From contig JBBDML010000015.1 in the NCBI GenBank assembly GCA_040878345.1, positions 20,882 to 84,881 on the forward strand: a stretch of DNA of 64,000 nucleotides. Direction: 5' to 3'. Position numbers and translations under genes: made by a program. The notes beneath the pieces were generated by a model that had not been told where the DNA came from, ran no database searches, and saw only the letters and a list, made by a program, of their open reading frames with translations. This document shows positions 3,421-57,226 of the stretch, in pieces (position 1 is the first letter of the stretch; the number at the start of each line of letters is the position of its first letter). This DNA is from Acidimicrobiia bacterium (GTDB lineage: Bacteria; Actinomycetota; Acidimicrobiia; Spongiisociales; ZC4RG35).

Positions 3421-3988
3421 CTGCCGCCTCCATGAGGTTCCGCAGTCTCCACAGCGCTCGTGAGGTCCTCGACTTCACGGTGCCGGTGGCGATCGCAAGG
3501 ACCGCGGCGGTCTCGGCCTCGGTGAGCCCCAACAGGTATCGAAGTGAGACCACCAGGCGGTATCGGTCGGGTAGCCCATCCACCGCTACCAGGACGGTCC
3601 GGGCCCTCTCCTCATCGATCACAACCGTCTCGGGGGATTGGGCCGCCTCCCCCGAAACGGGCTCCGCAGCCACACGAAGTGCCAGACGGCGTCGTCTCCC
3701 CCCGCTGCGTCGACGGTTGGCGGCTTCGTTGCGCACGATCGTCAGCAACCAGGGGCGAAAAGGGGACCCTTCACGAAAACGGTCGAGAGCCCGGAATGCC
3801 TTGACGAAGGCATCCTGGGCGACCTCTTCGGCCTCGCCATGATCCCTCACCAGGAGGTAGGCGAGTCGAATGGCAGTGCTCTGGTGTATCCGCACGAGTT
3901 CCTCAAATGCACCCAGATCACCTGACCTGGCGTCGGAAACGAGTTGTGTCTCGTCCAGTGGACGGCCCTCCACCGCAGTATCAGCCAT
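3413..3988 (-). CDS. ECF-type RNA polymerase sigma-70 factor
   Basis: Region 2 (FEELVRIHQSTAIRLAYLLVRDHGEAEEVAQDAFVKAFRAL) and region 4 (LRYLLGLTEAETAAVLAIATGTVKSRTSRAL) signatures. The start was chosen at the internal Met (MADTAVEG); the ORF track begins at 4024. Confidence 0.75.
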   Translation of the reverse strand: MADTAVEGRPLDETQLVSDARSGDLGAFEELVRIHQSTAIRLAYLLVRDHGEAEEVAQDAFVKAFRALDRFREGSPFRPWLLTIVRNEAANRRRSGGRRRRLALRVAAEPVSGEAAQSPETVVIDEERARTVLVAVDGLPDRYRLVVSLRYLLGLTEAETAAVLAIATGTVKSRTSRALWRLRNLMEAADV

Positions 3989-4128: not shown

Positions 4129-4641
4129 ATGAGGAAGGTATTCACCATTCTGGCCGTGGCCGGTTTCGTTGCGGCGATGATGCCCAGTGCCCTCGCTGGG
4201 GGCATGGCGATAACCGCCTTCGACTCGCTGCCGGACGAGTTCGAGGCCGGCCGGACCTACACCTTGAGCTACACGATCCTCCAACACGGCGTGACCCCGG
4301 TCGACAACGCCAACTCGATGCTTGCCTTCACCAGCGTCGATAGCGGTCAGACCATCACCTTCCAAGCAACCGCCACCGGGGACCCGGGTCGTTACACGGT
4401 CGACGTGACGGTGCCCGCCGAGGGAGCCTGGGAGATGCAGGTCACCCAGGGGCCTTTCGAGGCACACGACTTCGGTGTCATCGAGATCTCACCAGCTGCT
4501 GACAATCCGGTGGCGGGCCTGTCGTGGGCCAATGTCCTCATGGTGGTCCTGCCCCTGGCCGCGGTGGCCGCCGCCTGGTACACGGTGCGGGAGCTGAGGC
4601 GGGTTCGCCAGGTTGGCGAGGTACCCACCGAGATCGGCTGA
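4129..4641 (+). CDS. Hypothetical exported protein with C-terminal membrane anchor
   Basis: ATG at 4129 gives MRKVFTILAVAGFVAAMMPSALAGG, a signal peptide. A C-terminal TM segment (LMVVLPLAAVAAAWY) follows. The first 74 codons of ORF 3907..4641 look noncoding. Confidence 0.45.
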   Translation: MRKVFTILAVAGFVAAMMPSALAGGMAITAFDSLPDEFEAGRTYTLSYTILQHGVTPVDNANSMLAFTSVDSGQTITFQATATGDPGRYTVDVTVPAEGAWEMQVTQGPFEAHDFGVIEISPAADNPVAGLSWANVLMVVLPLAAVAAAWYTVRELRRVRQVGEVPTEIG

Positions 4642-5252: not shown

Positions 5253-5663
5253 TCAGCCGAAGGTGAGCCAGCCGGCCAGGGAGGCCCCGAACACGGTGAT
5301 GGGCAGGAAAGTGAATCGCTCCCACCTGGTTCCCTGGAACAGGTTGTAGATGGCGGCGATGGAGAGGAAGGCGGTAACCACCCAGCCCGTCGACCTGGAC
5401 CAGGCCGCGGGGACCGGGGAGACATCGACCGTCCCGCCGAAAGCGGCCACCACCCAGGCGGAGAGGAGCAGAAGGATGGCATATCCCAAGCTGCGCCTCC
5501 GGTACGAGGGGTGGAGCCGTCGCGGGTATCGGCCCGACCACACCAGTTCGCCCATCCGCAGACCGCCCGCCATGAGCAGGTGGACCAGCGCCATCCAGAG
5601 GAAAAGTCCGGCGGCGAGAAGGGAGAGCCACTCGGCGTCCACTTCCATCAGGATACCGCTCAC
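5253..5663 (-). CDS. Hypothetical multi-pass membrane protein
   Basis: 136 aa with 4 predicted hydrophobic helices; no recognisable motif. Confidence 0.35.
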   Translation of the reverse strand: MSGILMEVDAEWLSLLAAGLFLWMALVHLLMAGGLRMGELVWSGRYPRRLHPSYRRRSLGYAILLLLSAWVVAAFGGTVDVSPVPAAWSRSTGWVVTAFLSIAAIYNLFQGTRWERFTFLPITVFGASLAGWLTFG

Positions 5664-5773: not shown

Positions 5774-5817
5774 GGTGGGTCCCGTGGGAATCGAACCCAC
5801 AACCTTCGGGTTAAAAG
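5774..5817 (-). repeat. Partial tRNA-Lys copy (3' half: anticodon loop to 3' end); 44-bp direct repeat of 7841..7884
   Basis: Exact 44/44 match to the 3' portion of the intact tRNA-Lys at 7843..7915. Identity stops inside the anticodon loop. There is no matching 5' half, so this is not a tRNA gene. Confidence 0.8.
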
Positions 5818-6290
5818 TGTGCCGAACGTTGTTTCCTTCCGTGTCCACGGGTCGCGTTCTGCGAGGCAGTGTCGGCATTTTGGTATCGATATAGCACCCA
5901 TTCGCCTCCTCCGGTGCGGTTCTGTTTCCTCTACGGCGTTTGCAGATCGGTTTGCACATCATGAGCCAAGCTCCCGCAGGCGTTGGAGTTCACATCGACT
6001 GCCGCGCCTCGACCGGAGTCACGTCAGACGCAGACAAAATGAACCAGTCCCATTCTGCGGTCAGCAAAGCGGGGTGACCTCTCAGCGGTCTGGTCATCAC
6101 CGGGATGGGGCTGTTCTGGCGTGAGATCCTGGGGCTCATCGGCAGCCTGTTCCGCAAGTACGCGGACGAGGCAGCACAACTCAGCGCCAGCATGGTCTGC
6201 GCCGGATCGCGTAATGTCTCCGAGCTGGAAAGGAGGGGATCCGACCCGTGGTCGGCCCCCTCGGCGCGCGACGCTAAGGATCGGTTACCG

Positions 6291-7715
6291 ATGTCCCACA
6301 TGATGGTGAATTCCGAGGCGCAGCCGGTGCTCCTCCTGCTAGTCGACATCAGTGGCTACACCCGCTTCATGGTGTCGCATGAGAGGGAGCTGCGACACAG
6401 CCAGATGATCATTGGCGAGCTGCTGGAGAGCCTGATACGCCAAGTGGATGTCCCGCTGCGCATCTCCAATATCGAAGGCGACGCCCTGTTGCTCTATGCG
6501 GTGAAGAGCGGCGAGGAGGAGGTGTGGCGTCGCCGCAGCGGGAACCTGGTGGAGCGGCTGATTGTCATGTTCCGGGTCTTTGCCGAGCGTCTGTTGGAGA
6601 TCGGCGCGTACAGCGTGTGCAAGTGCGGCGCTTGCGCCACGGTAGGCAACCTCGAGCTGAAGGTCATAGCCCACTCCGGGGAAGCCCTTCTCACTCAGGT
6701 GGGGGAGTACCCGAGCTTGTCGGGGCCTGACGTCATCACCGTCCACCGCCTCGCCAAGAATTCGGTGCCGGAGGACGAGTACATCTTGATGACGGAGGCC
6801 GCCTATCTCGACCTCCAGCTTCCTGAGGGCGCAACCGTGCGGGAGAGTGTTGAGACTTACGACACCGGGACGTTCAAGACCTACATCCACCTCCCTGAGT
6901 ACGATGTCGACTACGACGAGGAAGCCATTAGGGCACATTTCTCCGACGACAACGCCGCGGTGATGATCCTGCGCGATGAGATCGCCCGCGAGTACACCGA
7001 CGTGGCGACCGTCCCAGACCGGGGCTACCACTTCAATACCGGCCGGGCAGCCCTGGCGATCAACGGCTATGAGGAGCAGTGGCTGGAGGGGATCCCAGAG
7101 TCGGCCATCGCCTCGTTCTCCGGAATGGGGAATCCGTTCTCGATGGGTATGCCGGTCGAAGGGGAGTATGTGGTGGACGTCGGATCCGGAGCCGGCCTGG
7201 ACGCCATGATCGCGGCCCGGGCGGTGGGGCGGGCCGGTTATGTAATTGGAGTGGACATGACCGAGGCGATGCTGGAGAAGGCCAACGCCGGAAAAGCCGA
7301 GTTCGGTCTCGACCAGGTGGAGTTCCGTCACGGCTACGTCGAGTCACTCCCAATACCGGATGGTTGGGCCGATCTGGTGATATCCAACGGAGTCATCAAC
7401 CTCTCCCCCCAGAAGGACAGGGCCTTCAAGGAGATCTCTCGGGGACTGCGACCGGGGGGTCGGCTCCAGATCGCCGACATCACTGTGGAGAAGGAGATCC
7501 CCGAGGGGGCCAGGCGCGACATCGACTTGTGGACGAACTGAATAGCCGGGGCGCTGCTGGAAGCAGCGCTCGAGGCCACGGTCGTGGCCGCCGGATTTGA
7601 GGGATTCGAGATCACTTCGAAAGAGGACGTGTTCAAAGGTGCCCCCCGGCCCAGCAAGGAGGTGGCCTATTTCGGCACACAAGGCATCAACTTCCGCGCC
7701 TACAAGCCCGGATAG
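6291..7715 (+). CDS. Putative selenoprotein: unknown N-terminal domain fused to ArsM-like SAM-dependent methyltransferase; in-frame UGA (7539..7541) read as Sec
   Basis: The ORF track stops at TGA 7539-7541 (...ADITVEKEIPEGARRDIDLWTN*). The same frame continues for 57 more codons (IAGALLEAALEATVVAAGFEGFEITSKEDVFKGAPRPSKEVAYFGTQGINFRAYKPG) to TAG 7713-7715. The motif LWTN-U-IAGAL aligns with ArsM LW(A/T)GCIAGAL, so the UGA sits at the conserved As(III)-binding Cys. The upstream MTase core GEYVVDVGSGAGLDA...VISNGVINLSPQKDRAFKEISRGLRPGGRLQIADI matches ArsM (VVSNCVINLSPDK). A hairpin GCGCUGCUGGAAGCAGCGC at 7551..7569 begins 9 nt after the UGA. The start was chosen at ATG 6291 (MSHMMVNSEAQPVLLLLVDISGYTRF), which has an AAGGA 11 nt upstream. 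The ORF could begin as early as 6105. Confidence 0.55.
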
Positions 7716-7842
7716 CGGGGAAGTGTGTTTGCGGCGTGGGCGGCACTCACGGGAGTTAATTCTCAGACGGATAAGCGCGGACAAGAGCAACGATGACGAA
7801 GACGCCCACCACAAGGTCGAGCCACATTTGACTTTCCTGAGG

Positions 7843-7915
7843 TGGGTCCCGTGGGAATCGAACCCACAACCTTCGGGTTAAAAGCCCGCTGCTCTACCAA
7901 TTGAGCTAGAGACCC
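7843..7915 (-). tRNA. tRNA-Lys (anticodon UUU)
   Basis: Minus-strand sequence GGGTCTCTAGCTCAATTGGTAGAGCAGCGGGCTTTTAACCCGAAGGTTGTGGGTTCGATTCCCACGGGACCCA folds as a cloverleaf. The acceptor stem is GGGTCTC/GGGACCC, with a D-arm and a T-arm GTGGG-TTCGATT-CCCAC. The anticodon loop is CTTTTAA. A genomic CC follows the discriminator base. Confidence 0.85.
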
Positions 7916-7991
7916 GGGAGATGCGCGGCCGGTTCTCGGTCACGCGCCTGCCAAGGATACAGGGCGCCGGAAACGCAGAGGACCTCGAGCA

Positions 7992-8954
7992 TTACCCAAC
8001 GTGTCGAGGCGGGAGGCCCATTCGTTCGCTGAGGGCCTCCTGGCGATGGCGGACGATGCGGTCGGCGATGCTCTCGGCCGCGTGTTTGAGCCACATGGCG
8101 GTGTGCGACCCGTCCGAGTAGTCCGCTTCTCCAAATGCATCGACCCGGCTTTGCTCCAAGAGCCGGTTGGCCTGCTCGAACTCTCGCTCCGAACCGGGGC
8201 GATACACCGCATAGGTGCGCCCGCCGTTCTCATCGACGATCGAGAACACCGGGACATCAGAGGGGCCGTCGGCGATATAGATCATGTTCTGGAACGGGAT
8301 CCTCCGGTCCTCCCGGGCGATCTTGGCGTTGACGTCGATGGTGGGGTTCTTGTTGGTCCCCTTGTTGATCTCGAAGAGGGCCCGGGTCTTCGAGGTGTTG
8401 TCGATGGTGTAGATCAGCTGCTGGATCTCGCCTTCGGGCGAGAAGAGGCGGTCCTGTCGGTCGGCGTAGCCGGGTGGGGCCACCAACTCGGTGAACTCAC
8501 AGGCCCAGACATCCTCGATCTGGGGAGCGATGGCCGACCCCAGGATCATCTGGCGGAGCCCGGTGGACACCACATAGTGCTCGACCCGGATCTGGTGCTC
8601 GGCGAAACGGGGCACCGCCTCGACCGACTTCCTCACCAACTCCAAGAAGTCGGGCATCCCGGTGTAGAACTCGATCTCGGCGCCCAACTGACGGAGCAGG
8701 GCATTGCCCAGCCCTGGCATCCGACCCGCCTTCACATAGGTGAGGATGTGGTTGAGATACAGGTGATCGCGCTGGATGAGAGACGAGCCGTGACTGCGGT
8801 AGAAGCCTTGAAGCCCTTCGACCTCGGCCCAGAACCCGGCCTCGTCGATGTCATAGTGGCGGAACAGGGGCGCCTGCATGTTCCCCGGGATCAGGGTCTT
8901 GTCGAAGTCCCAGATCATGGCGATCACGTTTTGGGGGAAAAGCTGGCGGGCCAT
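7992..8954 (-). CDS. HAD-superfamily hydrolase/phosphatase
   Basis: DFDKTL (HAD motif I) near the N-terminus and YIADGPSDVP (motif IV). Only the C-terminal 321 codons of the 632-aa ORF look like protein; the rest is antisense to the next gene. Confidence 0.55.
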   Translation of the reverse strand: MARQLFPQNVIAMIWDFDKTLIPGNMQAPLFRHYDIDEAGFWAEVEGLQGFYRSHGSSLIQRDHLYLNHILTYVKAGRMPGLGNALLRQLGAEIEFYTGMPDFLELVRKSVEAVPRFAEHQIRVEHYVVSTGLRQMILGSAIAPQIEDVWACEFTELVAPPGYADRQDRLFSPEGEIQQLIYTIDNTSKTRALFEINKGTNKNPTIDVNAKIAREDRRIPFQNMIYIADGPSDVPVFSIVDENGGRTYAVYRPGSEREFEQANRLLEQSRVDAFGEADYSDGSHTAMWLKHAAESIADRIVRHRQEALSERMGLPPRHVG

Positions 8955-9867: not shown

Positions 9868-11673
9868 GTGAGCGGCATCCGCTTCGGCATCTCCGACCTG
9901 CCGCCCGAAGGGTCAGACCCGGCGCTGTTCCTCGACGGGTTGGTGGAACAGGGTCATCGCGCCCTGGAACTGCCCTTCACCAAGGACTTCCCCTGGAAGG
10001 AGAAGCAATGCCAGGCGTTCGGGGTACTGGCCGCGGAGAGGGACATACGTCTCTCGGTGCATGCCCCCTACTTCGCCGGGCTGACCCTTCCCGAAGAGGA
10101 TCGGGGCAAGCAGTCCCTGGCCGCAATCGAGCACACCATGAAGCTGGGAAGGTGGCTGGGAGCACCGGTGATCGTTGCCCACTTCGGCTCCAATTACGAC
10201 GAGGACCCCGAGGTCCTGATGGATCGGATCAGGAAACGTCTCGACGCGGTGGCACCCAAGGTGGAGACGATCGGGGTGGGGTTGGGGCTGGAGACCGCCG
10301 GGAACCGAAGCTCCTTCGGGAGCCTGGGTGACATCGCCCAGCTCGTCTCGGAGTACAGCTTCGTCCGGCCGGTTGTCGACTGGGCTCACATCCACGCCAT
10401 GACCGGAGGCGGGCTCACCTCCAAGGCGGCCTTCCTCTCGGTCCTGGCCTTCATCAGAGACAGCTTCCCGGGGTGGATGATCTCGCCCCTCCAGGTGCAG
10501 TTCTCCGACAATCAGTTCGGCAGTGCTGGGGAGATTCGCCACGTGGCCTATGGGGAGGGGACTCTCAGGGTGGGGCCACTGGTCGATGCGGTCCTCGAGT
10601 CGGGGATGTCGATGGTCCTGATCTCCGAGGCACGCGACGCAGCTAGCCATGAGCTGATCTGGGAGGAGGCGAGAGCCCATCTCGAGGATCGGAGGGAGGG
10701 CGAGGGCCGGCTGGTCGCCCGGGCCCAGATCGACTTCCCAACGCCGGTGAGGGTGCGCAAGGATGGTGACAGGTTCGTCCCCGCCGACGTCGACAGGCCG
10801 ATCACCTTCACCAACATCGACAAGGTGTTCTTCCCCGAGGAGGGCTACACCAAGGGTGACCTGATCCAGTATTACGGCTCGGTGGCGCCGGCCCTGCTGC
10901 CCCATATCACCGATCGGCCCCTCTCGATGTCCCGCTATCCCGACGGGATCACCGGGCCATCGTTCTACGAGAAGAGGGCGCCGGGTCATCAGCCCGACTG
11001 GATGCGGACCACCCCGGTCCCATCCGACAGCCAAGGCGGGGAGCTCGACTTCCTCCTCGCCGACTCGAAGGAGGCTGTGATGTGGTTTGCCAACATGGGC
11101 TGCATCGAGTTTCACCCTTTCCACTCGAAGGCCGCCGCACTCGACAACCCGACCTACGCGATCTTCGATTTCGACCCTTCGGAGGGCTCGACCTGGGATC
11201 AGGTGGTTGCCGGCTCCAAGCTGCTCCGGGTGGCCCTTGGCCAGCTGGGGCTCAGCGGGTATCCCAAGTTGAGCGGTTCGCGGGGGCTCCACGTCTACGT
11301 GCCCCTGGAGCCGGTGCACGACTTCGGCCGGGTCCGCCGCTTCGTCGGGGAGGTCGGCGAGTACATGGCGGCGGCCAACCCCGAGGACATCACCATGGAG
11401 TGGGACAAGCCGAAGCGGAAGGGCAAGGTGTTCATCGATCACAACCGGAACGCATTCGGGCAAACCGTTGCCTCCGCCTACTCGGTGCGTCCCCGTCCCG
11501 GGGCGCCGGTGTCGGCCCCCCTCTCCTGGGACGAGGTCGACACGGTGGTCAACGGTGACCTCACCATCGTCACCATCTGGGAGCGATTGGTCAGGTACGG
11601 CGATCTGTTCGCCCCGGTGCTCGCCGGCGGTCAGACCTTGGACGCCGCCGAGTCGGCCTTGGGGATCGCCTGA
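9868..11673 (+). CDS. Fusion protein: endonuclease-IV-like (AP endonuclease family 2, xylose-isomerase-like TIM barrel) N-domain + LigD-type NHEJ polymerase (PolDom/PrimPol) C-domain
   Basis: The N-terminal half resembles Nfo-family metal-site segments: IRFGIS..., HAPYFAGL, LETAGNRSSFGSLGDIAQLV, VDWAHIHAMTGG, HVAYGEGTLRVGPLVDAVLESGMSMVLISEA. The C-terminal half matches mycobacterial LigD PolDom blocks: ITFTNIDKVFFPEEGYTKGDLIQYY, SRYPDGITGPSFYEKRAPGHQPDW, YAIFDFDPSEG, YPKLSGSRGLHVYVPLEP, KRKGKVFIDHNRNAFGQTVASAYSVRPRPGAPVSAPLSWDEV. The start was chosen at the in-frame GTG 9868, just after the upstream stop. The ORF track starts at ATG 9820, which overlaps the hydrolase. Confidence 0.6.
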   Translation: MSGIRFGISDLPPEGSDPALFLDGLVEQGHRALELPFTKDFPWKEKQCQAFGVLAAERDIRLSVHAPYFAGLTLPEEDRGKQSLAAIEHTMKLGRWLGAPVIVAHFGSNYDEDPEVLMDRIRKRLDAVAPKVETIGVGLGLETAGNRSSFGSLGDIAQLVSEYSFVRPVVDWAHIHAMTGGGLTSKAAFLSVLAFIRDSFPGWMISPLQVQFSDNQFGSAGEIRHVAYGEGTLRVGPLVDAVLESGMSMVLISEARDAASHELIWEEARAHLEDRREGEGRLVARAQIDFPTPVRVRKDGDRFVPADVDRPITFTNIDKVFFPEEGYTKGDLIQYYGSVAPALLPHITDRPLSMSRYPDGITGPSFYEKRAPGHQPDWMRTTPVPSDSQGGELDFLLADSKEAVMWFANMGCIEFHPFHSKAAALDNPTYAIFDFDPSEGSTWDQVVAGSKLLRVALGQLGLSGYPKLSGSRGLHVYVPLEPVHDFGRVRRFVGEVGEYMAAANPEDITMEWDKPKRKGKVFIDHNRNAFGQTVASAYSVRPRPGAPVSAPLSWDEVDTVVNGDLTIVTIWERLVRYGDLFAPVLAGGQTLDAAESALGIA

Positions 11674-11691
11674 AGGCGTCTCCCCGGATCG

Positions 11692-11800
11692 TTCTGTGCG
11701 GATCTGTGACGGAGGGGTTCGCGCGAATCCGCACAGAACGGTCCCGCGATTCATTCTGTGCGGATCTGTGACGGAGGGGTTCGCGCGAATCCGCACAGAA
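11692..11800. repeat. Two tandem copies (period 62 bp) of a 47-nt perfect hairpin: TTCTGTGCGGAT-N23-ATCCGCACAGAA
   Basis: Units at 11692..11738 and 11754..11800 are identical over 50 nt, including the 23-nt loop CTGTGACGGAGGGGTTCGCGCGA. They lie between the Nfo-PolDom gene stop and the HisA-like gene start. Confidence 0.8.
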
Positions 11801-11859
11801 CGGGTCTGGGAGGGCCTTCTCCGGGATCGGGCGCTCGGCGTGTTCATTAGTGTTCCGGG

Positions 11860-12936
11860 ATGGACCTCTATGCCCGTGTCAACATCCTGGGAGGGCTCTC
11901 GGTCCGCCTGCCCCACGGCCAGCTCGATGAGGCCATCGCCCTGGACAACGATCCTGTGGGCCGAGCCCACAACTGGGCCCAACAGGGTGTCGACTACCTC
12001 CACGTCGTCGACCTCGACGCCGCCGCCTACGGCGATTACCGGAATCGTGACCTCATCGGCCGTCTCATCGAGGTGGCCGGGGTCCCGGTCCAGGTGGCTG
12101 GTGGGGTCCGCTCCGAGGCCGAGGCGGAACGACTGGTGGGCTTGGGGGCCTGGCGGATCGTGATGGGCACTGCCGCCATCGAGAACCAGATCATGGTGTG
12201 GGAGACGTGCCGTGACTACCCGGACAAGATCGTGGTGTCCCTCGACGTGAGAAAGAACGAGGAGGTGGCCACTCGGGGCTGGACCCAGAACAGCGGGAGG
12301 TTCCTCGAGGAGGTCCTCATCGAGATGTCGTCGGCGGGCGCGGTCGCCTTCCTCGTCTCCGAAGCGGGGAGGGACGCCCTCAACGAGGCGCCGAACTACG
12401 CGATCCTCGCCGAGGCCCTGGCCACGGTGGAGGAGCCGGTGATCGCAGCCGGAGGAGTCAGGGATGTCGAAGACCTGCGTCAACTGATCCAGCTCGAGGC
12501 CTCAGGTCGCCGGCTGGATGGGGTGATCGTCGGCAGGGAGGTGACTGCCGGCCGCTTCACCATCGCCGAGGCCAAGGAGATCCTGGCGGGTCGGGGCCCG
12601 ATGCGAGCCCCGGGCGGGATCAGCTCCACCAGGACTTCGGTGGGTGTCAGCTCCCTGGCCGCATCGGTCGACTTCTATGGAGACACTCTTGGCTTTCAGC
12701 GGGTCCGCACCCCATCTCAAGGGGTTGTGGCGGCCGTGGTCCAGGCCGCGCCCGGGCAGGAGATCGAACTGGTGGAAGGTGGCAGCGGCCGCCCCGAGAC
12801 CCTGGTGTTCCATGTCGACGATCTCCAACGATGGAAAGACCACTTGGCCAAGATGGGGGTTGCAGCCACCGCCACCGCCGGTGGGCTGGAGATCGTCGAC
12901 CCCGATGGGCTCCGAATCAGGCTCGAGCCGAGCTGA
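11860..12936 (+). CDS. HisA/PriA-like (beta/alpha)8 isomerase domain fused to C-terminal VOC (glyoxalase/bleomycin-resistance) domain
   Basis: The N-terminus MDLYARVNILGGLSVRLPHGQLDEAIALDNDPVGRAHNWAQQGVDYLHVVDLDAA resembles the HisA start (ILPAIDL..G..VRL). A second phosphate-binding half (VIAAGGVRDVEDLRQL) follows. The C-terminal 100 aa (VDFYGDTLGFQRV...LVFHVDDL) is VOC-like. Confidence 0.5.
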   Translation: MDLYARVNILGGLSVRLPHGQLDEAIALDNDPVGRAHNWAQQGVDYLHVVDLDAAAYGDYRNRDLIGRLIEVAGVPVQVAGGVRSEAEAERLVGLGAWRIVMGTAAIENQIMVWETCRDYPDKIVVSLDVRKNEEVATRGWTQNSGRFLEEVLIEMSSAGAVAFLVSEAGRDALNEAPNYAILAEALATVEEPVIAAGGVRDVEDLRQLIQLEASGRRLDGVIVGREVTAGRFTIAEAKEILAGRGPMRAPGGISSTRTSVGVSSLAASVDFYGDTLGFQRVRTPSQGVVAAVVQAAPGQEIELVEGGSGRPETLVFHVDDLQRWKDHLAKMGVAATATAGGLEIVDPDGLRIRLEPS

Positions 12937-13116
12937 GCCGGCCTAGTGACCACTAGTGGCCCGTCGCCCAAATAGCTACGCGGTCTCGCCGGCCCTCGAC
13001 GCCACTGGACTGCGTCCTCGTCCTCAACGCACCCACAGGTGCGCCTTCGTCCTGCGTCCTTGCCAGCGACCCCGAATGGCTCGGCGACACCGCGGCATCA
13101 ATTGAGCGACAGACCA

Positions 13117-14673
13117 CTAGCGGACCAAGGTCCGCGACTGTTCCCTGAGGTACTGGCGGAGATACCAGGGCCCACCGCCACCGGTGCCCGACGTGCCCGA
13201 CGACTTCCACCCCCCGAAGGCCTGTATGTCGGGCCAGGCTCCGGTGGTGGCGCCGGCGGCCCGGTTGACGTAGGTGACACCCGCTTCGATCCCCTGGAAC
13301 CACCGATCGATCTCGTCATGGTCGCCGGAGAACAGCCCGGCGGTCAACCCGTAGACGGTGTCGTTGGAGCGTCTAAGACCCTCCTCGAGATCTGAGACCT
13401 GACCTACGGCCACCACCGGGAGGAACAGCTCCTCGGTCCAGACCCAGGAGTCATACGGTGCGGTGATCACGGTGGGCTCGACGTAGTTGCCCCGGGCCAT
13501 GTCCCCCTCCTCGATCACGTCACCCCCGGCGAGGACCTGTCCGCCACTGTCGATGGTCTCACTGATCGCCTTCTTGAACCGGGCCACCGCCCCACGGTCG
13601 ATCACCGGCCCCATGAACACCCCAGGCCGGGTGGGATCGCCGACTTTCAGAGCCTCGGCCTTCTCCACCAGCCTGGCGACGAACTCGTCGTAGACCGGGG
13701 TCTCGACGAAGACCCGGGCCGTGGCTGAGCACTTCTGGCCGCTGAGGCCGAATGCTCCCCTCATCACCCCTTCTGCTGCGATGTCGAGATCGGCGCTCCT
13801 GGTGATCATCACCGGGTTCTTGCCCCCCATCTCGGCCACCACCGGCTTGGGGCGCTTCTCGTTGGCGGTGCGATAGAGCTGCATGCCAACCTCGTAGGAC
13901 CCGGTGAAGGTGATCCCGTCGACGCCCTCATGGTGGGTCAGATGATCCCCGACCTCGCTTCCCCGTCCCGTGATCACGTGGAGTGCGCCTTTGGGGATGC
14001 CTGCCTCGGCCATCACCCGATAGAACTCGAGGGCCATGAGGGCGCCGGTATTGGATGGCTTGATCACCACGGTGTTGCCGGTGAGCAGTGCCCCGATCGA
14101 GGGCCCGGCGGCCAGGGCCATCGGGAAGTTGAAGGGCGAGACCACCACCCACACCCCCCACGGGCGGAGGACCGAGACATTGTGCTCCCTGCCCTGGGGC
14201 TTAAGTGGGGTGACGAACCCGTCATGCTCGGTCATCTGGCGGGAGTAGTACCGGAAGAACTCCACCGTCTCGGCGATGTCGCCCAGTGCCTCCAACCGGT
14301 TCTTGCCCACCTCGAAGGACAGCACGGCGGCGATGTCATAGATCTGGTCGTCCATGATGTCGGCGGCCTCGAGCATCAGGTCCCGGCGGCGCTCCCACCC
14401 CCATGCCTCCCACTCCGGGAAGAAGGCCCTGGCGGCCGCGATGGCATCGTCCACGTCCTGGTTGGTGGCCTGGCTGTATCGAGCGACGACGATCTCGGAG
14501 TCGATCGGGGACCGCTCCTCGTAGATCGGCCGGTCGGTCCGATGCTCACCATCGACGATCACGCCGTGGGTCTGGCCAAGTCGCGACCCTGCCTTCACCA
14601 CCGCCGTCTCGTAGGCGGCGTTCAACTCGTCGTTGTCGGCTGACATCGTGGCGTAGGTGATCTGAAGCGGCAT
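13117..14673 (-). CDS. pruA: Aldehyde dehydrogenase, likely L-glutamate gamma-semialdehyde (1-pyrroline-5-carboxylate) dehydrogenase
   Basis: ALDH motifs VAEMGGKNP and catalytic GQKCSA. Length about 518 aa, typical of actinobacterial P5CDH. Confidence 0.65.
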   Translation of the reverse strand: MPLQITYATMSADNDELNAAYETAVVKAGSRLGQTHGVIVDGEHRTDRPIYEERSPIDSEIVVARYSQATNQDVDDAIAAARAFFPEWEAWGWERRRDLMLEAADIMDDQIYDIAAVLSFEVGKNRLEALGDIAETVEFFRYYSRQMTEHDGFVTPLKPQGREHNVSVLRPWGVWVVVSPFNFPMALAAGPSIGALLTGNTVVIKPSNTGALMALEFYRVMAEAGIPKGALHVITGRGSEVGDHLTHHEGVDGITFTGSYEVGMQLYRTANEKRPKPVVAEMGGKNPVMITRSADLDIAAEGVMRGAFGLSGQKCSATARVFVETPVYDEFVARLVEKAEALKVGDPTRPGVFMGPVIDRGAVARFKKAISETIDSGGQVLAGGDVIEEGDMARGNYVEPTVITAPYDSWVWTEELFLPVVAVGQVSDLEEGLRRSNDTVYGLTAGLFSGDHDEIDRWFQGIEAGVTYVNRAAGATTGAWPDIQAFGGWKSSGTSGTGGGGPWYLRQYLREQSRTLVR

Positions 14674-14811
14674 TGGCGGCGTCCTCTCGATGATGTCCTT
14701 AGGCCGTGACGATACCCGGTGGAGCGCAGGGCCCCGATGGCGCCGGCAGACCGCATGCGCCCGATTGGGCCTGGCGGCCTATTGGAGCCAATGGGTCGTT
14801 AGACCGGTGCC

Positions 14812-16533
14812 GTGACCGGCAGTTCCGGCCGATGTAAAGGCGTGGCAACCCGTACTTCCGAGTCGGTCCTCGGTGCCAGCTCCGACCTCTCCCAGCTCCA
14901 TCGTCGGGTGGTGCGGGTCGGGGCGGCTTCTGCGTGGTTCGCCGCATCGCTCCTGTTGGTGGCCGGGGTGCTCAGCGATAATCAAGACCTCTTCGTCGAG
15001 GCGATCGCGCCTGCCCTCGCCGCCGGCCTGATGACCGCCCAGATCGTTCTCAAGACCGAGAGCGGGGGGGTGGCCCTCTTCGGATCGGCCATCGTGGTGA
15101 TGGTGATGCACATCGTCGTCGGCAATCCGAACACACTTCTCCCCGCCGCTCTGGCCCTGGTGGTGATCTGTGCGATAGCCATCCTCCTCATCGATTCGCA
15201 CCATATGCAGACGATCTCGGTGCTGGCGGTGATGCTCGTCCTCGCACCGCAGCTCTGGGAAGTCTCCTTCACGGAAGCCTTGATCCTCGGTGTGGTGATG
15301 AGCCTCTCCTTCGTGATGACCTCGATCATCTTTCTCAGCATCCGCAGCGCCGCCACCACACTCAATGCCCGTTTCCAGACCCTCTTCGAGGACTCGCCCA
15401 CGGCGGTCATGGAGGAGGACTGGTCGGAGGCTCTCGCCTACCTGCGATCCGAGTACACCGGTCGGCCCGATCGGATCCGGCCTTTCCTGATGGCCTACCC
15501 GGCGGTGGTGCGCCGTGCGGTCAATCGGTCCCGGATACTCAGGGTCAACCAGGCGGCGGTCGACCTGCTCGAGGCGGAGAGCGCCACCGACATCCAGGGC
15601 AACCGGGACGGCTCCAAGCTGACCGACGAGAACATCGGGGCTTTCGCCAATGCCCTGGCTGCCCTCTACGAGGGCATGACCACTTTCGAGCAGGACGTCC
15701 CGGTGATGACCCTGAAAGGGCGTAGGATCTGGCTCCAGGCCAGAGGTGTCGACACCTCGACTGGGGACCCGGCGACCACGATCTTGGTCGGCCTGGCCGA
15801 TGTCACCCACATCAAAGCTCGCCAGGAGGCGATGGCTGAGTTGGTGAGGGCCAAGGACGAGTTCATCGCCAAGGTGAGCCACGAGCTGCGGACCCCCCTG
15901 ACCGCCGTCCTGGGGCTCGCCACTGAGATGACCGCCATGGAGCCCATGGGCGACGAAGAGCGCTCCGAGCTGCTTCAGCTGGTGGCGGGCCAGGCTCAGG
16001 AGATGTCGTACATAGTCGAGGACCTGCTGGTGGCCTCGAGGACTGAGATGGGGACGGTTTCGATCGACTCGAGGGTGGTTGACCTCGAGGTCGAGCTGCA
16101 GTCGGTCATCGACGGCCTGGGCCTGGATATCGCCGAGATACCCGAAACCATCCAGGAGGCGATGGCGGACCCTGGGCGGGTTCGTCAGGTTCTGAGGAAT
16201 CTGCTCACCAATGCAACCCGGTACGGGGGGCCGCGCATACGAGTCATGGCCGGAGCCCTGTTCGATGCGGTATGGCTCGAAGTGCGGGACAACGGGGATG
16301 GTGTGCCACGCGAACTGGTCAGCAGGATCTTCGAGCCGTATGGGACCGCCCACACCGGTGTGAACGGCTCGGTGGGCTTAGGGCTTTCGGTTTCACGCCA
16401 GCTAGCCGAGCTGATGAAAGGCTCGCTGACCTACAGGCGAGATGGCACAGAGAGCGTGTTCCGTCTCGAGCTCCCTCTCGTCGTCAAGTCCAGCCAGGCC
16501 CTCCCGCTTCACAGATCGCAGCCGGTTAGCTAG
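14812..16533 (+). CDS. Sensor histidine kinase (multi-TM sensor, PAS-like, HisKA, HATPase_c)
   Basis: H-box FIAKVSHELRTPLTAVLG. N and G boxes (RNLLTNATRYG, DNGDGVP..., GLGLSVSRQLAE). About 6 N-terminal TM helices. No response regulator is adjacent. Confidence 0.7.
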   Translation: MTGSSGRCKGVATRTSESVLGASSDLSQLHRRVVRVGAASAWFAASLLLVAGVLSDNQDLFVEAIAPALAAGLMTAQIVLKTESGGVALFGSAIVVMVMHIVVGNPNTLLPAALALVVICAIAILLIDSHHMQTISVLAVMLVLAPQLWEVSFTEALILGVVMSLSFVMTSIIFLSIRSAATTLNARFQTLFEDSPTAVMEEDWSEALAYLRSEYTGRPDRIRPFLMAYPAVVRRAVNRSRILRVNQAAVDLLEAESATDIQGNRDGSKLTDENIGAFANALAALYEGMTTFEQDVPVMTLKGRRIWLQARGVDTSTGDPATTILVGLADVTHIKARQEAMAELVRAKDEFIAKVSHELRTPLTAVLGLATEMTAMEPMGDEERSELLQLVAGQAQEMSYIVEDLLVASRTEMGTVSIDSRVVDLEVELQSVIDGLGLDIAEIPETIQEAMADPGRVRQVLRNLLTNATRYGGPRIRVMAGALFDAVWLEVRDNGDGVPRELVSRIFEPYGTAHTGVNGSVGLGLSVSRQLAELMKGSLTYRRDGTESVFRLELPLVVKSSQALPLHRSQPVS

Positions 16534-16545
16534 CTTCAGGGGCGC

Positions 16546-17211
16546 ATGCCCGATCAGTCGCTCTCCCTGGCCTATTGGCCGTTGATGTTGCTGTCCGCCT
16601 ACGTGCTGGGCTCCATCCCATTCGCCCAGGTGGTGGCCAAAGCCAAGAAGGTCGACTTGCGTCGAGTCGGGACCGGGAACGTCGGTGCCGGCAACCTCAC
16701 CCAGGAGATCGGAAGAGGATGGGGCGCCGTCGCGGGCCTCCTCGACGGCTTCAAGGGTGTGATCCCGGTGCTCATCGCCCGCAAAGCCGGTCTCGGCGCC
16801 GGCTCCGCCGGGATGGTGGGCCTGGCCGCCGTGATCGGCCACAACTGGTCGATCTGGTTGCGGGGGCGGTCGGGAAGAGGTCTGGCCACCTCTGCGGGTG
16901 TGATGCTTGCACTCGACCCGGTGCTGCTGGTGTGGACCTCCGGATGGGCGGTCGCCGGCTGGAAGATCGGTGGCGGTCTCGCCGGCTTCCTGGGCTGGGG
17001 GCTGCTCCCCATCGTCTCGATCTCCCTGGGACGCCCGCCTACGGAAAGCGTCTTCCTGCTGCTCCTGGCAGTCGTGCTGATCGGTCGCCGCATGCAGGGC
17101 AACCACGACAGCTCCAAGGATCCTGCGGCGGTGTGGCGTCGGGCGGTGTACGACAACGATCTCGGCGTCCATGACTTCCCCGACACGATTGAACACCCGC
17201 TGACACCGTGA
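16546..17211 (+). CDS. plsY: Glycerol-3-phosphate acyltransferase PlsY
   Basis: SGNxGATN-type motif (GTGNVGAGN), conserved HNWS, and multi-TM topology. Confidence 0.65.
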   Translation: MPDQSLSLAYWPLMLLSAYVLGSIPFAQVVAKAKKVDLRRVGTGNVGAGNLTQEIGRGWGAVAGLLDGFKGVIPVLIARKAGLGAGSAGMVGLAAVIGHNWSIWLRGRSGRGLATSAGVMLALDPVLLVWTSGWAVAGWKIGGGLAGFLGWGLLPIVSISLGRPPTESVFLLLLAVVLIGRRMQGNHDSSKDPAAVWRRAVYDNDLGVHDFPDTIEHPLTP

Positions 17212-18143
17212 GCCCAAGACGGGTGATTCTCATCGCGGTGATCGCCGCGGTGATCTATGCCGGGGTCGCCATCTGGGTCCTGAACAACTTCGAGGTCCCG
17301 CCGATCAACCGCGCCGCCTGGACCTTCATCTTCCTGGCTGCCGTATCGCAGATCTCGGCGAAATGGTTCTTCGGGCTCCTGTTCCGTGAGTCGGTCCAGG
17401 AGGTGTCGGGCAACCTCCGGCCATGGTCGGCGTTCAAGGCGGCCCTGGTCGGCGCGGGGGTGGCCCGTCTCATCCCGGCCGGTGGGGCGATCACCCCGGT
17501 TGCCATGGCATGGACCGTGCGCGAAGAGACCGCGGTCGCCGCCGGGCCGGCCCTTCGGACCGTCCTTCTCAACTACGCCGGGTTGTTGATGATGGCCGGT
17601 GGCGGGCTGCTGCTCGCCCGCCCTCGGGAGTCGGCCCAAATCGCCTCTGTGAGCCTGGTGGTGTTGGCCCCATTCGTGTTGTTCGTCGGTCTGCTTCTCA
17701 TGTTCGGGTCGGGTCAGCTCCAGACGCTCAACAAATACCTGCCACGGTTCATCAGGACCCGGTTGGAAAGCTCGGTCGCCAACCACGCCCCGAAGCTGGA
17801 GTCGCAGGCCTACATCTGGGCCCGGCTCACGCTCGAGGCCGGTGCACTCTGGCTGGTGCTCGAAGCCTTCGGGATAGGGGTCAGCGGGTTCCAAGTGATG
17901 GCAGCCTTCGCCGTCGCCTCCCTGGCCGGGGGTCTCCCGGGGACTCCTGGAGGTCTGGGGATCACCGAGGTCGGTCTGGCTCTGATCCTTGCCGCCTATG
18001 GGATCCCGGCCGCGATCACCGCAGTGCCCATCCTCGTCTTTCGGATCATCTCCTACTGGTTGCCGGCCGCCCTCAGCTTCCTCGCCGGCGGGACCACCTT
18101 CCTCCGCTCGGACGAGGCCCAGGCGGCGGACGTCTCCGGCTGA
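17208..18143 (+). CDS. UPF0104/MprF-type flippase-like membrane protein
   Basis: 311 aa, about 8 TM segments, Gly-rich conserved C-terminal segment (GGLPGTPGGLGITEVGL). Overlaps plsY by 4 nt. Confidence 0.5.
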   Translation: MSPRRVILIAVIAAVIYAGVAIWVLNNFEVPPINRAAWTFIFLAAVSQISAKWFFGLLFRESVQEVSGNLRPWSAFKAALVGAGVARLIPAGGAITPVAMAWTVREETAVAAGPALRTVLLNYAGLLMMAGGGLLLARPRESAQIASVSLVVLAPFVLFVGLLLMFGSGQLQTLNKYLPRFIRTRLESSVANHAPKLESQAYIWARLTLEAGALWLVLEAFGIGVSGFQVMAAFAVASLAGGLPGTPGGLGITEVGLALILAAYGIPAAITAVPILVFRIISYWLPAALSFLAGGTTFLRSDEAQAADVSG

Positions 18144-18163
18144 GGAGGTAGCCTCGGTCACCG

Positions 18164-18610
18164 ATGGCCGACAAGGTGGATTTCAATCTGAGGAACCAGG
18201 ACGGTGACCCTGTCACCGATGCTGATTTCGCCGGGAAGAAATACGTGATGTTCTTCTACCCCAGGGCGATGACCCCGGGGTGCACCACCGAGTCATGCGA
18301 CTTCAGGGACAGCTATCAGGAGTTCGCCGCCGCCGGCTACGAGGTGGTCGGGGTCAGCCCCGATCCGCCGTCGCGGAACCGAAGGTTCAAGGAGAAGGAG
18401 GGGCTCAACTTCGATCTCCTCTCCGATGAGGACCATGAGCTGGCAGATACCCTCGGCGCCTGGGGGGAGAAGACCCTCTATGGGAAGCTGAGCCAGGGGC
18501 TGCTCCGATCGACATTCGTCGTCGATGAGCGGGGACGGGTAGTCAAGGCCTATCGCAACGTCAGGGCCACCGGTCACGTCGCCCGGGTCAAAGCCGACCT
18601 GCTCGGCTGA
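18164..18610 (+). CDS. bcp: Peroxiredoxin Bcp (thiol peroxidase)
   Basis: FYPRAMTPGCTTESCDF matches the Bcp active site (FYP.D.TPGCT.E.C). Confidence 0.75.
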   Translation: MADKVDFNLRNQDGDPVTDADFAGKKYVMFFYPRAMTPGCTTESCDFRDSYQEFAAAGYEVVGVSPDPPSRNRRFKEKEGLNFDLLSDEDHELADTLGAWGEKTLYGKLSQGLLRSTFVVDERGRVVKAYRNVRATGHVARVKADLLG

Positions 18611-18661
18611 CGGTTCCTCTGCCCGATTGCCTGCATGCGATCTGGGGTGCACACGCTGCGC

Positions 18662-19546: not shown

Positions 19547-19582
19547 GACCGCCCAGGTTATCGACCTGCTAAACCCTCGACC

Positions 19583-55743: not shown

Positions 55744-55777
55744 CTTGTTGGATCCAGCCAGTCTTTAACCTGCAGGG

Positions 55778-56800: not shown

Positions 56801-57226
56801 GTGGGACCCGAAGAGCGGCTGGAGGCCATTGCCGGCGCCTTGTCAATCCCGACGGCGAGACGGCACATCTTCCTGTGCGCAGACCAGACCAACCCGAAAT
56901 GCGCCCCTCGCGAGAAGACCCACGAGTTGTGGGCCCACTTGAAGAGTCGTCTCAAGCTGCTCGAGGTGACCACCGCGCCGCCGGCGTGGCAGGGAGACAT
57001 GTCGGTGAACCCCGACCCGGTCGCAGTGGGGGATGGCACCGTGCTCCGGTCAAAGGTGGACTGTCTCCGCATCTGCGAGCAGGGCTGCATCGCGGTCGTC
57101 TACCCCGAAGGCACCTGGTATGCGGGACTCGACCGCGAGAAGCTGGACCGGATCATCGATGAGCATCTGATCGGCGGGGTGCCGGTTGGCGAACTGGTCT
57201 TTGCCCGGGGAGACTTGTCGCCATGA
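56801..57226 (+). CDS. Thioredoxin-like [2Fe-2S] ferredoxin-family protein
   Basis: Cys pattern C26, C34, CLRIC, C95. The GTG start directly abuts the selD stop (GTGA). Confidence 0.45.
   Translation: MGPEERLEAIAGALSIPTARRHIFLCADQTNPKCAPREKTHELWAHLKSRLKLLEVTTAPPAWQGDMSVNPDPVAVGDGTVLRSKVDCLRICEQGCIAVVYPEGTWYAGLDREKLDRIIDEHLIGGVPVGELVFARGDLSP

What the first reader, a model, noticed from the sequence alone, without database searches (positions are those of the whole stretch)
5774..7884. A ~2.1-kb islet bounded by a 44-bp duplication of the tRNA-Lys 3' half (att-like) whose only cargo is the Sec-MTase gene
The intact tRNA-Lys(UUU) lies at 7843..7915 on the minus strand. Its last 44 nt, from the anticodon loop through the 3' end (7841..7884), recur exactly at 5774..5817. 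Identity ends precisely inside the anticodon loop, which is the classic crossover point of tRNA-targeting tyrosine integrases. The ~2.0 kb between the repeats contains only the fusion methyltransferase and a ~470-bp upstream stretch. That stretch looks noticeably AT-richer (5820..6100) than the surrounding ~68% GC. No integrase gene is inside, so this looks like a decayed or minimal integrated element, or a site-specifically acquired cassette. The cargo is a UGA-recoded gene, which is unusual for horizontally transferred DNA.
Basis: seen in the sequence. Interest (0 to 1): 0.65.

Follow-up and report, generated by a model that had tools for sequence, protein, structure and literature searches.

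The report
Decayed integrated element at tRNA-Lys
A 2-kb stretch next to a lysine tRNA gene is the worn-down remnant of a mobile element that once inserted there; it has lost its integrase but kept a selenium-containing methyltransferase gene. This is an ordinary, well-understood kind of genomic islet.

Summary
An exact 44-nt direct repeat (5774-5817 = 7841-7884) is the 3' part of the intact tRNA-Lys(UUU) at 7841-7915 (minus strand), running from the first base of the anticodon loop to the CC after the discriminator.

The 2,023 bp between the repeats hold four things:
- a ~220-nt non-coding arm;
- a disrupted small ORF;
- the DUF2652 / ArsM-like methyltransferase gene with an in-frame UGA;

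Related Acidimicrobiia genomes carry the same integrase family at the same tRNA. One has an intact 6.9-kb int/xis element with a perfect 46-nt repeat, at a locus syntenic with this window on the LigD side. Others show stages of decay: an N-terminally truncated int, a C-terminal int fragment next to a Kup gene, and an islet with no int at all. Each carries different cargo.

Close methyltransferase homologues sit in unrelated contexts elsewhere. No integrase is detectable in the 64-kb window.

This is a decayed tRNA-integrated element, CIME-like in anatomy. The UGA cargo is not paradoxical: selD lies in the same window, and the UGA is conserved across the gene family.

It is a new member of a known kind, of modest interest.

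The parts
5774..5817 (-). Displaced 3' fragment of tRNA-Lys(UUU), positions 32-75. This is the attR-like core, adjacent to the host flank (membrane-protein gene 5253..5663).
   Evidence: Exact 44/44 copy of 7841-7884. Same orientation as the tRNA, lying on its 3' side.
5818..6038 (.). Distal arm of the islet. It appears non-coding and has the lowest GC of the region.
   Evidence: GC is 0.585 over 5818-6116. ORFs here have GC3 of 0.56-0.62, against 0.81 for real genes. There are no Rfam, promoter or terminator hits. It has no significant similarity to the distal arms of L177, L008, L027 or L010.
6039..6214 (+). Disrupted copy of a small (61-69 aa) single-helix ORF that precedes the methyltransferase in its closest relatives. 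It has an in-frame TGA at 6075-6077 and a 1-nt deletion near 6183.
   Evidence: Nucleotide alignment to L168. Peptide matches lie in two frames, WREILGLIGSLFRKYADEAAQL and RQHGLRRIA. Intact homologues are P0241-P0243. The frameshift fuses its tail to the methyltransferase frame, which explains the 478-aa public gene model P0001 that starts at 6105.
6291..7715 (+). Cargo gene: a DUF2652 (nucleotide-cyclase-like) domain fused to an ArsM-like SAM methyltransferase. In-frame UGA (Sec) at 7539-7541.
   Evidence: Pfam finds DUF2652 at residues 41-164 and Methyltransf_31 at 291-418. NCBIfam's best matches are ArsM and ArsM-type selenoprotein families, all below their cut-offs. At the UGA column, 42 loci have TGA and 39 have Cys. 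The alignment to ArsM 5evj places U on the Cys of GECLAGAL, while the Cys of VISNCVINL is Gly here.
7546..7594 (+). SECIS-like stem-loops just 3' of the UGA.
   Evidence: Hairpin GCGCUGCUGGAAGCAGCGC; MFE -32 kcal/mol, z = -2.4. The stretch is almost invariant across 9 homologues whose genes are otherwise 75-92% identical to the window's, but shows no compensatory changes.
7758..7840 (+). Relic of the 3' end of a tyrosine-integrase gene, reading into the tRNA 3' half as in the intact elements. It encodes ..SQTDKR.. (stop) ..ATFDFPE.
   Evidence: blastn to the int 3' end of L016 gives 78/92 plus 22/25 matches. For the 125 nt beyond the tRNA, the local alignment score is 35, against 16.5 +/- 2.4 in shuffles (0 of 2000 reach it).
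7841..7915 (-). Intact tRNA-Lys(UUU). Its 3' 44 nt (7841-7884) form the attL-like core.
   Evidence: ARAGORN and Rfam at 72.6 bits. It is 98.6-100% identical to the tRNA-Lys of L027, L177, L008 and L016.

Best explanation
The islet is the decayed remnant of a small integrative element. That element inserted into the tRNA-Lys(UUU) gene by tyrosine-integrase site-specific recombination.

Inferred from established knowledge of such elements: crossover occurred in or at the anticodon loop. The element's own copy of the tRNA 3' half regenerated the gene (7841-7915). The host's original 3' half was displaced to the far end (5774-5817).

Shown here: later deletion removed the integrase gene except its last ~83 nt (7758-7840), together with the excisionase and backbone genes seen in intact relatives. 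What remains between two perfect 44-nt cores is a Sec-containing DUF2652/ArsM-like methyltransferase gene, a disrupted small upstream ORF and an unrelated ~220-nt arm.

Inferred: the islet is now non-autonomous and is most likely fixed. The methyltransferase reached this locus horizontally, probably from another Sec-using member of the Acidimicrobiia, either as cargo of the element or by later recombination into it.
For: 1. There is an exact 44-nt direct repeat of the tRNA 3' part, in the right orientation and on the tRNA's 3' side. It occurs only twice in 64 kb.

2. The islet end abutting the tRNA is homologous to the last codons of an integrase gene. In relatives that gene overlaps the same tRNA in the same arrangement.

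3. L016 carries a full 411-aa integrase (Phage_integrase plus SAM-like and central domains) whose reading frame runs into the tRNA-Lys 3' half.

4. L177 carries an intact 6.9-kb element (int, an HTH_17 gene at the position of an excisionase, SEC-C, ECF sigma and others) bounded by a perfect 46-nt repeat of tRNA positions 29-74. Its tRNA flank (LigD, a HisA-like gene, an aldehyde dehydrogenase, a sensor kinase) is syntenic with window 9880-20071.

5. There is a decay series at the same tRNA:
- L041: int lacking its N-terminus.
- L008: a 116-aa int C-terminal fragment plus Kup, with a 43-nt repeat.
- L027: PadR plus a membrane protein with no int, a 47-nt repeat and a ~14-24-nt int tail.
- L177: a further int-tail relic outside its distal repeat, indicating tandem accretion.

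6. Close methyltransferase homologues (75-92% nt identity) lie in unrelated contexts without tRNA-Lys or this integrase.

7. The islet has the lowest GC of any equal-sized window in the 64 kb.

8. No integrase is detectable in the window by tblastn or by a profile built from 120 family members.
Against: No empty site (tRNA-Lys directly abutting the 5253..5663 gene) was found. The nearest genomes share only 88% amino-acid identity in the neighbouring HAD gene, and their flanks are rearranged.

The distal arm shows no similarity to the distal arm of the intact element or to those of the other islets. Only one end is therefore tied to this element family.

The methyltransferase GC3 is host-like. 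Its foreign origin rests on context, not composition.

Whether the gene arrived with the element or entered the relic later cannot be told.

The perfect 44/44 identity could reflect either a recent event or gene conversion.

The chromosomal topology comes from a MAG contig. The k=31 unitig cannot distinguish an integrated copy from an empty site or an excised circle.
Confidence: 0.85

Rival explanations
1. The islet is still a mobile, non-autonomous cassette, like a CIME or satellite. An integrase and excisionase supplied by a related element elsewhere in the genome, or by one that integrates in tandem, would recombine the two intact 44-nt cores and move the methyltransferase gene.
For: Both cores are perfect. 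At least two other integrase-less or nearly integrase-less islets with different cargo sit at the same tRNA in relatives. L177 shows an intact element accreted next to an older int-tail relic. The integrase family is abundant, with 1,427 hits at E <= 1e-30.
Against: No integrase is present in the 64 kb. The distal arm shares nothing with the arm of the intact element, so the arm-type binding sites needed by heterobivalent integrases are probably missing. This family has the N-terminal arm-binding domain PF26003. The decay series is explained more simply by erosion. No circular or empty form could be tested.
Confidence: 0.12
2. The methyltransferase was not cargo of the integrating element. It entered an already decayed relic later, or replaced the relic's interior, by recombination with chromosomal DNA carrying the small-ORF/methyltransferase pair.
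For: The methyltransferase module (about 6039-7746) is collinear with L168, including the upstream small ORF and 30 nt beyond the stop. Homology stops about 12 nt before the int relic. GC3 is host-like. None of the intact or partly intact elements seen carries this gene.
Against: No mechanism-specific scar is seen, such as IS ends or target duplications. Intact elements of the family have variable middle cargo (L177 versus the P0124 contig), so carrying a methyltransferase would be unremarkable. This rival changes only the order of events, not the nature of the islet.
Confidence: 0.25
3. Assembly artefact or population mixture. The 2-kb segment is bounded by a repeat and was threaded into the contig by the assembler. 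In the cells it may be an excised circle, or be present only in a subpopulation.
For: The Logan unitig ends in both repeat copies, so at k=31 the graph is ambiguous. The source is a MAG.
Against: Both junctions look biologically native. The int tail runs into the tRNA exactly as in L016, L177 and L041. A 44-nt repeat would be spanned by the larger k-mers that metagenome assemblers commonly use and by ordinary reads (inference; the MAG's assembly method was not seen). The same architecture occurs in independent assemblies of other genomes (L008, L027, L177).
Confidence: 0.04
4. The partial tRNA copy arose without an integrase, through local segmental duplication or decay of a second tRNA-Lys gene, and the methyltransferase is native to the locus.
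For: None specific. Partial tRNA pseudogenes do exist.
Against: The copy starts at the anticodon loop, at tRNA positions 29-34, in all five independent cases. There is an int relic inside the islet. Integrases sit at the same site in relatives. The methyltransferase is located elsewhere in other genomes.
Confidence: 0.02

Closest known systems
tDNA-integrated genomic islands as defined by Islander (Hudson, Lau & Williams 2015, PMC4383910) and the anticodon-loop sublocation class of Williams 2002 (recalled from my own knowledge; the paper is not held in the library)
   Same: There is an intact tRNA gene plus a displaced 3' fragment in direct orientation marking both ends of the island. The regenerated tRNA adjoins the integrase end. 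The identity block runs from the anticodon loop to the 3' end.
   Different: Islander requires an integrase gene inside the island; here only ~83 nt of it survive. The island is very small (2.0 kb) and has one functional gene.
[quoted passage not shown]
   Same: It is bounded by intact att cores, lacks integrase and excisionase, and derives from an integrase-bearing element by deletion. A related genome (L177) shows tandem accretion of an intact element next to such a relic.
   Different: The parent elements seen here (L177, the P0124 contig) show int and an excisionase-like HTH_17 gene but no recognisable conjugation genes, so they are not demonstrably ICEs. Mobilisation was not tested. The distal arm is not conserved with the intact element. 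The host is Acidimicrobiia, not Firmicutes.
L177-type 6.9-kb int/xis element at tRNA-Lys(UUU) of Acidimicrobiia (ENA ERZ27256795 k141_829365; also L016, L041 and the P0124 contig)
   Same: It has the same target tRNA, the same crossover region, and the same int 3' tail running into the tRNA. Its chromosomal neighbourhood on the tRNA's 5' side is syntenic.
   Different: The window lacks int, the HTH_17 excisionase-like gene, the SEC-C gene, the ECF sigma module and the distal arm. It carries the methyltransferase instead, which none of those elements has.
ArsM-type methyltransferase selenoproteins (NCBIfam NF041537, NF041536, NF047649)
   Same: The cargo's methyltransferase domain matches these families, and its UGA sits at a conserved ArsM cysteine (the Cys of GECLAGAL in 5evj).
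   Different: It scores below all curated cut-offs. It is fused to an N-terminal DUF2652 cyclase-like domain instead of AhpD or DUF2284. The ArsM cysteine of VISNCVINL is Gly, so arsenite methylation is not established.

Membership tests
tDNA-integrated genomic island (Islander definition) | An intact tRNA gene plus a cognate 3' fragment in the same replicon, in direct orientation, on the 3' side of the tRNA | tested here: met
   tRNA at 7841-7915 (-); 44/44 fragment at 5774-5817 (-).
tDNA-integrated genomic island (Islander definition) | A tyrosine-integrase gene inside the island | tested here: not met
   tblastn with the L016 and L177 integrases, and an HMM of 120 family members against all six frames of the window, gave no hit. 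Only an ~83-nt 3' relic is present.
tDNA-integrated genomic island (Islander definition) | The identity block starts at a canonical sublocation (anticodon loop, T loop or 3' end) | tested here: met
   The block starts at tRNA position 32, the first base of the anticodon loop. It starts at positions 29-34 in L177, L027, L008 and L010. The classification itself is from memory of Williams 2002.
CIME (cis-mobilizable element) | Intact attL and attR retained | tested here: inconclusive
   The core repeats are perfect. Arm-type sites cannot be identified, and the distal arm is unrelated to that of the intact element.
CIME (cis-mobilizable element) | Integration and transfer genes lost by deletion from an autonomous element | tested here: met
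   There is an int relic at 7758-7840. Intact and intermediate forms occur in relatives.
CIME (cis-mobilizable element) | The parent is an ICE, and the relic is mobilised in cis after accretion | not testable with these tools
   The L177 element shows no recognisable conjugation genes. Accretion next to a relic is seen in L177, but movement cannot be tested in silico.
L177/L016-type tRNA-Lys integrative element | Backbone genes: int, HTH_17 excisionase-like, SEC-C, g79/HTH_17 pair | tested here: not met
   tblastn of all L177 element proteins against the window gave only the tRNA-overlapping int tail, plus an unrelated ECF sigma at 3440-3907 outside the islet.
Bacterial selenoprotein gene | An in-frame UGA aligned with Cys in homologues, with a conserved reading frame downstream | tested here: met
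   At that column 42 loci have TGA and 39 have Cys; the downstream peptide IAGALLEAALEATVVAAGF is conserved.
Bacterial selenoprotein gene | A SECIS stem-loop immediately 3' of the UGA | tested here: inconclusive
   A stable hairpin is present and the nucleotides are almost invariant in 9 homologues. There are no compensatory changes, and no SECIS model was available for scoring.
Bacterial selenoprotein gene | The host encodes Sec machinery (selA, selB, selC, selD) | tested here: inconclusive
   selD is at 55769-56800 (TIGR00476, 389 bits against a cut-off of 125). No tRNA-Sec is in the window. selA and selB were not searched for; the rest of the genome is unavailable.
Arsenite methyltransferase ArsM | Scores above the curated family threshold and has the conserved As(III)-binding cysteines | tested here: not met
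   NF008823 scores 212.9 against a cut-off of 263. The Cys of VISNCVINL is Gly, and the Cys of GECLAGAL is Sec.

The most novel reading that the evidence does not exclude
In this Acidimicrobiia clade, the tRNA-Lys(UUU) 3' end may act as a cassette dock. Small att-flanked islets of 1.6-2.6 kb with no integrase, or only an integrase fragment, sit there: methyltransferase here, Kup in L008, PadR plus a membrane protein in L027. Under this reading they are not dead relics. They are units that the abundant 6.9-kb int/xis elements pick up by tandem accretion and move in cis, so that single adaptive genes, including selenoprotein genes, spread between genomes.
Probability: 0.1. Interest if true: 0.5.

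Novelty: new member of a known kind. Interest (0 to 1): 0.3.

Why it matters
It documents, in uncultured Acidimicrobiia, a tRNA-Lys integration hotspot with a full series of forms: intact element, accreted pair, truncated integrase, and integrase-less islet.

It also gives a concrete example of a selenoprotein gene that changed chromosomal location inside a site-specific integrative element. That is useful for annotating MAGs: the public gene model is truncated at the UGA and starts too early.

It is also relevant to thinking about how Sec-dependent genes spread among Sec-competent relatives.

It does not reveal a new mechanism.

Tried and rejected
- **Empty site.** I scanned one genome per GTDB species with the neighbouring HAD protein, giving 80 loci. 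None shows tRNA-Lys abutting a homologue of the 5253..5663 gene. L041 keeps the left-flank synteny (cytochrome c, YtkA, sigma, anti-sigma, GYD) but has its tRNA-Lys elsewhere.
- **Exact-protein look-up** of the HAD neighbour failed.
- **attP in viral contigs.** A 40-nt core pattern gave 0 hits in IMG/VR.
- **Methyltransferase contexts.** Eighty metagenome loci with relatives of the methyltransferase domain, six of them full- or near-full-length fusions, showed no tRNA-Lys or family integrase nearby.
- **Distal arm.** There is no significant similarity between the window's arm and the arms of L177, L008, L027 or L010. A shared AGGAAAC motif is too weak to count.
- **Regulatory features.** Rfam at a permissive threshold and the promoter/terminator scans found nothing in the islet apart from the tRNA.
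- **Tandem accretion in the window.** There are no further partial tRNA copies.
- **Foreign codon usage.** Rejected: GC3 is host-like.
- **Literature.** Williams 2002 could not be read because it is not held.
- **Unresolved lead.** L005's methyltransferase lies about 5 kb from homologues of three L177 element genes, and an integrase of the family (P0163) has a longest contig of the same length (365,749 bp) as L005's contig_4.
Full report
**Observation**

ARAGORN finds a single tRNA in the window, tRNA-Lys(UUU) at 7841..7915 on the minus strand. Rfam agrees, at 72.6 bits.

The repeat finder reports one outstanding direct repeat, 44 nt and 100% identical, at 5774-5817 and 7841-7884. A pattern search allowing three mismatches finds only these two copies in 64 kb, against none in 100 shuffles. 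A low-stringency blastn finds no further degenerate copies.

The repeat corresponds to tRNA positions 32-75. That is the entire anticodon loop, the 3' half of the tRNA, and the CC after the discriminator. Because the tRNA is on the minus strand, its 3' end faces the islet and the partial copy lies beyond it in the same orientation. This is the signature used to map islands integrated in tRNA genes: a regenerated target plus a displaced fragment (PMC4383910, read).

A Logan assembly of run SRR27977662 contains a 2,083-bp unitig identical to 5788-7870, ending 30 nt into each copy. The repeat is therefore real in the reads. A k=31 graph cannot, however, distinguish integrated, empty and circular forms.

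**Anatomy of the 2,023 bp between the repeats**

- **5818 to about 6038.** This stretch shows no sign of coding. GC is 58.5% over 5818-6116, and its ORFs have GC3 of 0.56-0.62 against 0.81 for real genes. There are no Rfam, promoter or terminator hits.
- **6039-6214.** This is a disrupted copy of a small ORF, with an in-frame TGA and a 1-nt deletion. Intact 61-69-aa versions exist (P0241-P0243), and in L168 its 3' end lies just upstream of the closely related methyltransferase gene. The frameshift joins its tail to the methyltransferase frame, which explains the 478-aa public gene model.
- **6291-7715.** This encodes a DUF2652 domain fused to an ArsM-like SAM methyltransferase, with UGA at 7539-7541.
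  - The UGA column is TGA in 42 related loci and Cys in 39 more distant ones, and the downstream peptide is conserved.
  - A stable hairpin follows the UGA. This stretch is nearly invariant among nine homologues whose genes are otherwise 75-92% identical to the window's.
  - Against solved ArsM (5evj), the Sec sits on the Cys of GECLAGAL, while the Cys of VISNCVINL is Gly. The substrate is therefore open.
- **7758-7840.** It is homologous to the last codons of a tyrosine-integrase gene. blastn to L016 gives 78/92 and 22/25 matches. For the 125 nt beyond the tRNA, the local score is 35 against 16.5 +/- 2.4 in 2,000 dinucleotide shuffles, none of which reaches it. The translated relic reads ..SQTDKR..*..ATFDFPE and runs into the tRNA, as in the intact genes.

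**Relatives**

A scan of one genome per species with the neighbouring HAD-like protein returned 80 loci.

- **L016.** A full integrase (Phage_integrase, SAM-like and central domains; 412-aa open frame, called protein 411 aa) lies with its 3' end overlapping tRNA-Lys.
- **L041.** The same integrase is present but has lost its N-terminal ~190 residues.
- **L008.** This is the closest genome, at 88% HAD identity. Its tRNA-Lys is followed by a 116-aa C-terminal integrase fragment and a Kup potassium transporter, then a 43-nt partial tRNA copy.
- **L027.** The tRNA, identical to the window's over 74 nt, is followed by ~14-24 nt of the int tail, a membrane protein and a PadR regulator, then a 47-nt partial copy. 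There is no integrase.
- **L177.** This locus was reached through integrase homologues and holds an intact element.
  - tRNA-Lys lies at 11174-11247, with a perfect 46-nt copy at 4248-4293.
  - The 6.9 kb between them carry int, an HTH_17 gene at the position of an excisionase, SEC-C, DUF433, a 701-aa protein, an ECF sigma factor and an HTH_17/MerR pair.
  - Its flank on the tRNA's 5' side (LigD, HisA-like, aldehyde dehydrogenase, sensor kinase) is syntenic with window 9880-20071 at 68-76% nucleotide identity. This is therefore a homologous chromosomal neighbourhood, although L177 lacks the HAD and alpha/beta-hydrolase genes that lie between the tRNA and LigD in the window.
  - Just outside L177's distal copy lies another int-tail-like stretch. 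This means the intact element integrated next to an older relic, i.e. tandem accretion.
- **P0124 contig.** A second contig has the same backbone and LigD flank but different middle genes.

The family integrase is at most 35% identical to actinobacteriophage integrases.

**Where the cargo normally lives**

Methyltransferase homologues of 75-92% nucleotide identity sit in several unrelated contexts:
- upstream of an rsmI-metG cluster in three lineages (L005, L170, L171);
- next to a pyridine-nucleotide oxidoreductase and near merB (L001, L002);
- next to arginase (L168);
- next to formamidase and DUF1059 (L175).

None of these is near tRNA-Lys or the family integrase.

In L172-L174 the same methyltransferase protein is followed by a 51-nt tRNA-Ile-like 3' fragment, and the three contigs diverge exactly at its end. 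One of them has a different integrase there. That is another tRNA hotspot, with the methyltransferase on the host side.

The location in the window is thus derived. Composition gives only weak support. The islet is the lowest-GC 2-kb window in the 64 kb, but the gene's GC3 equals the host mean. This fits a donor of similar composition.

**Autonomy**

No integrase is detectable anywhere in the window, by tblastn with two family members or by a profile of 120 members searched against all six frames.

The distal arm shows no significant similarity to the arm of the intact element or to those of the other islets. The family's integrase has an N-terminal arm-binding-type domain. Loss of the arm sites would therefore make excision unlikely even with integrase supplied in trans.

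I therefore regard the islet as a fixed relic (confidence 0.85 for the relic origin). A CIME-like, still mobilisable state (definition from PMC6323972) remains a minority possibility, at about 0.1.

**The 'unusual UGA cargo' point**

selD is present in the same window at 55769-56800 (TIGR00476, 389 bits). The UGA is conserved throughout a large Acidimicrobiia family. NCBIfam already models ArsM-type selenoproteins. A Sec gene moving between Sec-using relatives needs no special explanation.

**Limits**

- No empty site was found.
- The rest of the source genome could not be searched.
- It is open whether the methyltransferase arrived as element cargo or entered the relic later.
- The read-level topology is untested.

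**Verdict**

This is a new member of a known kind, of modest interest (0.3).

Noticed in passing
window 55769-56800 (+), with 56801-57226 (+) next to it: This is selD (selenide, water dikinase; TIGR00476, 389 bits) with a Cys-type GCGCK motif, followed by a 2Fe-2S-ferredoxin-like ORF. The host therefore uses selenium. No tRNA-Sec is in the window; selA and selB were not searched for.
   Followed up: partly
window 6039-6214 and the public gene model starting at 6105: A conserved 61-69-aa small ORF (P0241-P0243), whose 3' end is seen just upstream of the methyltransferase in L168, is broken here by a TGA and a 1-nt deletion. The frameshift merges its tail with the methyltransferase frame. The deposited 478-aa protein (P0001) therefore starts too early, and it also stops at the Sec codon.
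   Followed up: yes
L177 4217-4293: Outside the distal repeat of the intact 6.9-kb element lies a second int-3'-tail-like stretch. This indicates that the element integrated next to an older decayed element (tandem accretion).
   Followed up: partly
L172 8536-8586, L173 7740-7790, L174 7706-7756: About 60 nt after the stop of an identical methyltransferase (P0014) lies a 51-nt tRNA-Ile(GAU)-like 3' fragment. The three contigs diverge exactly at its anticodon-stem end, and L173 has a different integrase there (7836..8882). This is a second tRNA integration hotspot, adjoining the same gene family.
   Followed up: partly
L005 3781-4893 and L006 (ERZ25069014 contig_4 and contig_6): The methyltransferase occurs twice in one assembly, each copy near a 465-aa HTH_38 protein. 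In L005 it lies about 5 kb from homologues of three L177 element genes (g79, HTH_17, ECF sigma; 52-77% identity). A family integrase (P0163) has a longest contig of the same length (365,749 bp) as contig_4, so it may lie on that contig, but its position could not be looked up.
   Followed up: no
window 7536-7600 and homologous stretches in L001, L005, L168-L172, L175: The ~60 nt after the UGA are almost invariant at the nucleotide level in genes that are otherwise 75-92% identical to the window's. This is consistent with a SECIS element under selection, but there are no compensatory changes to prove the fold.
   Followed up: partly
window 6291-7715, residues aligned to ArsM 5evj: The methyltransferase has Gly where ArsM has the Cys of VISNCVINL, and Sec where ArsM has the Cys of GECLAGAL. 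It also scores below every NCBIfam ArsM cut-off. It is probably not a canonical arsenite methyltransferase. In L001 a merB gene and a pyridine-nucleotide oxidoreductase are nearby.
   Followed up: partly
L008 11093-11560: In the closest genome, an HNH-endonuclease-domain ORF (155 aa) sits between the HAD gene and tRNA-Lys. It is absent from the window, where the spacer is 76 nt.
   Followed up: no
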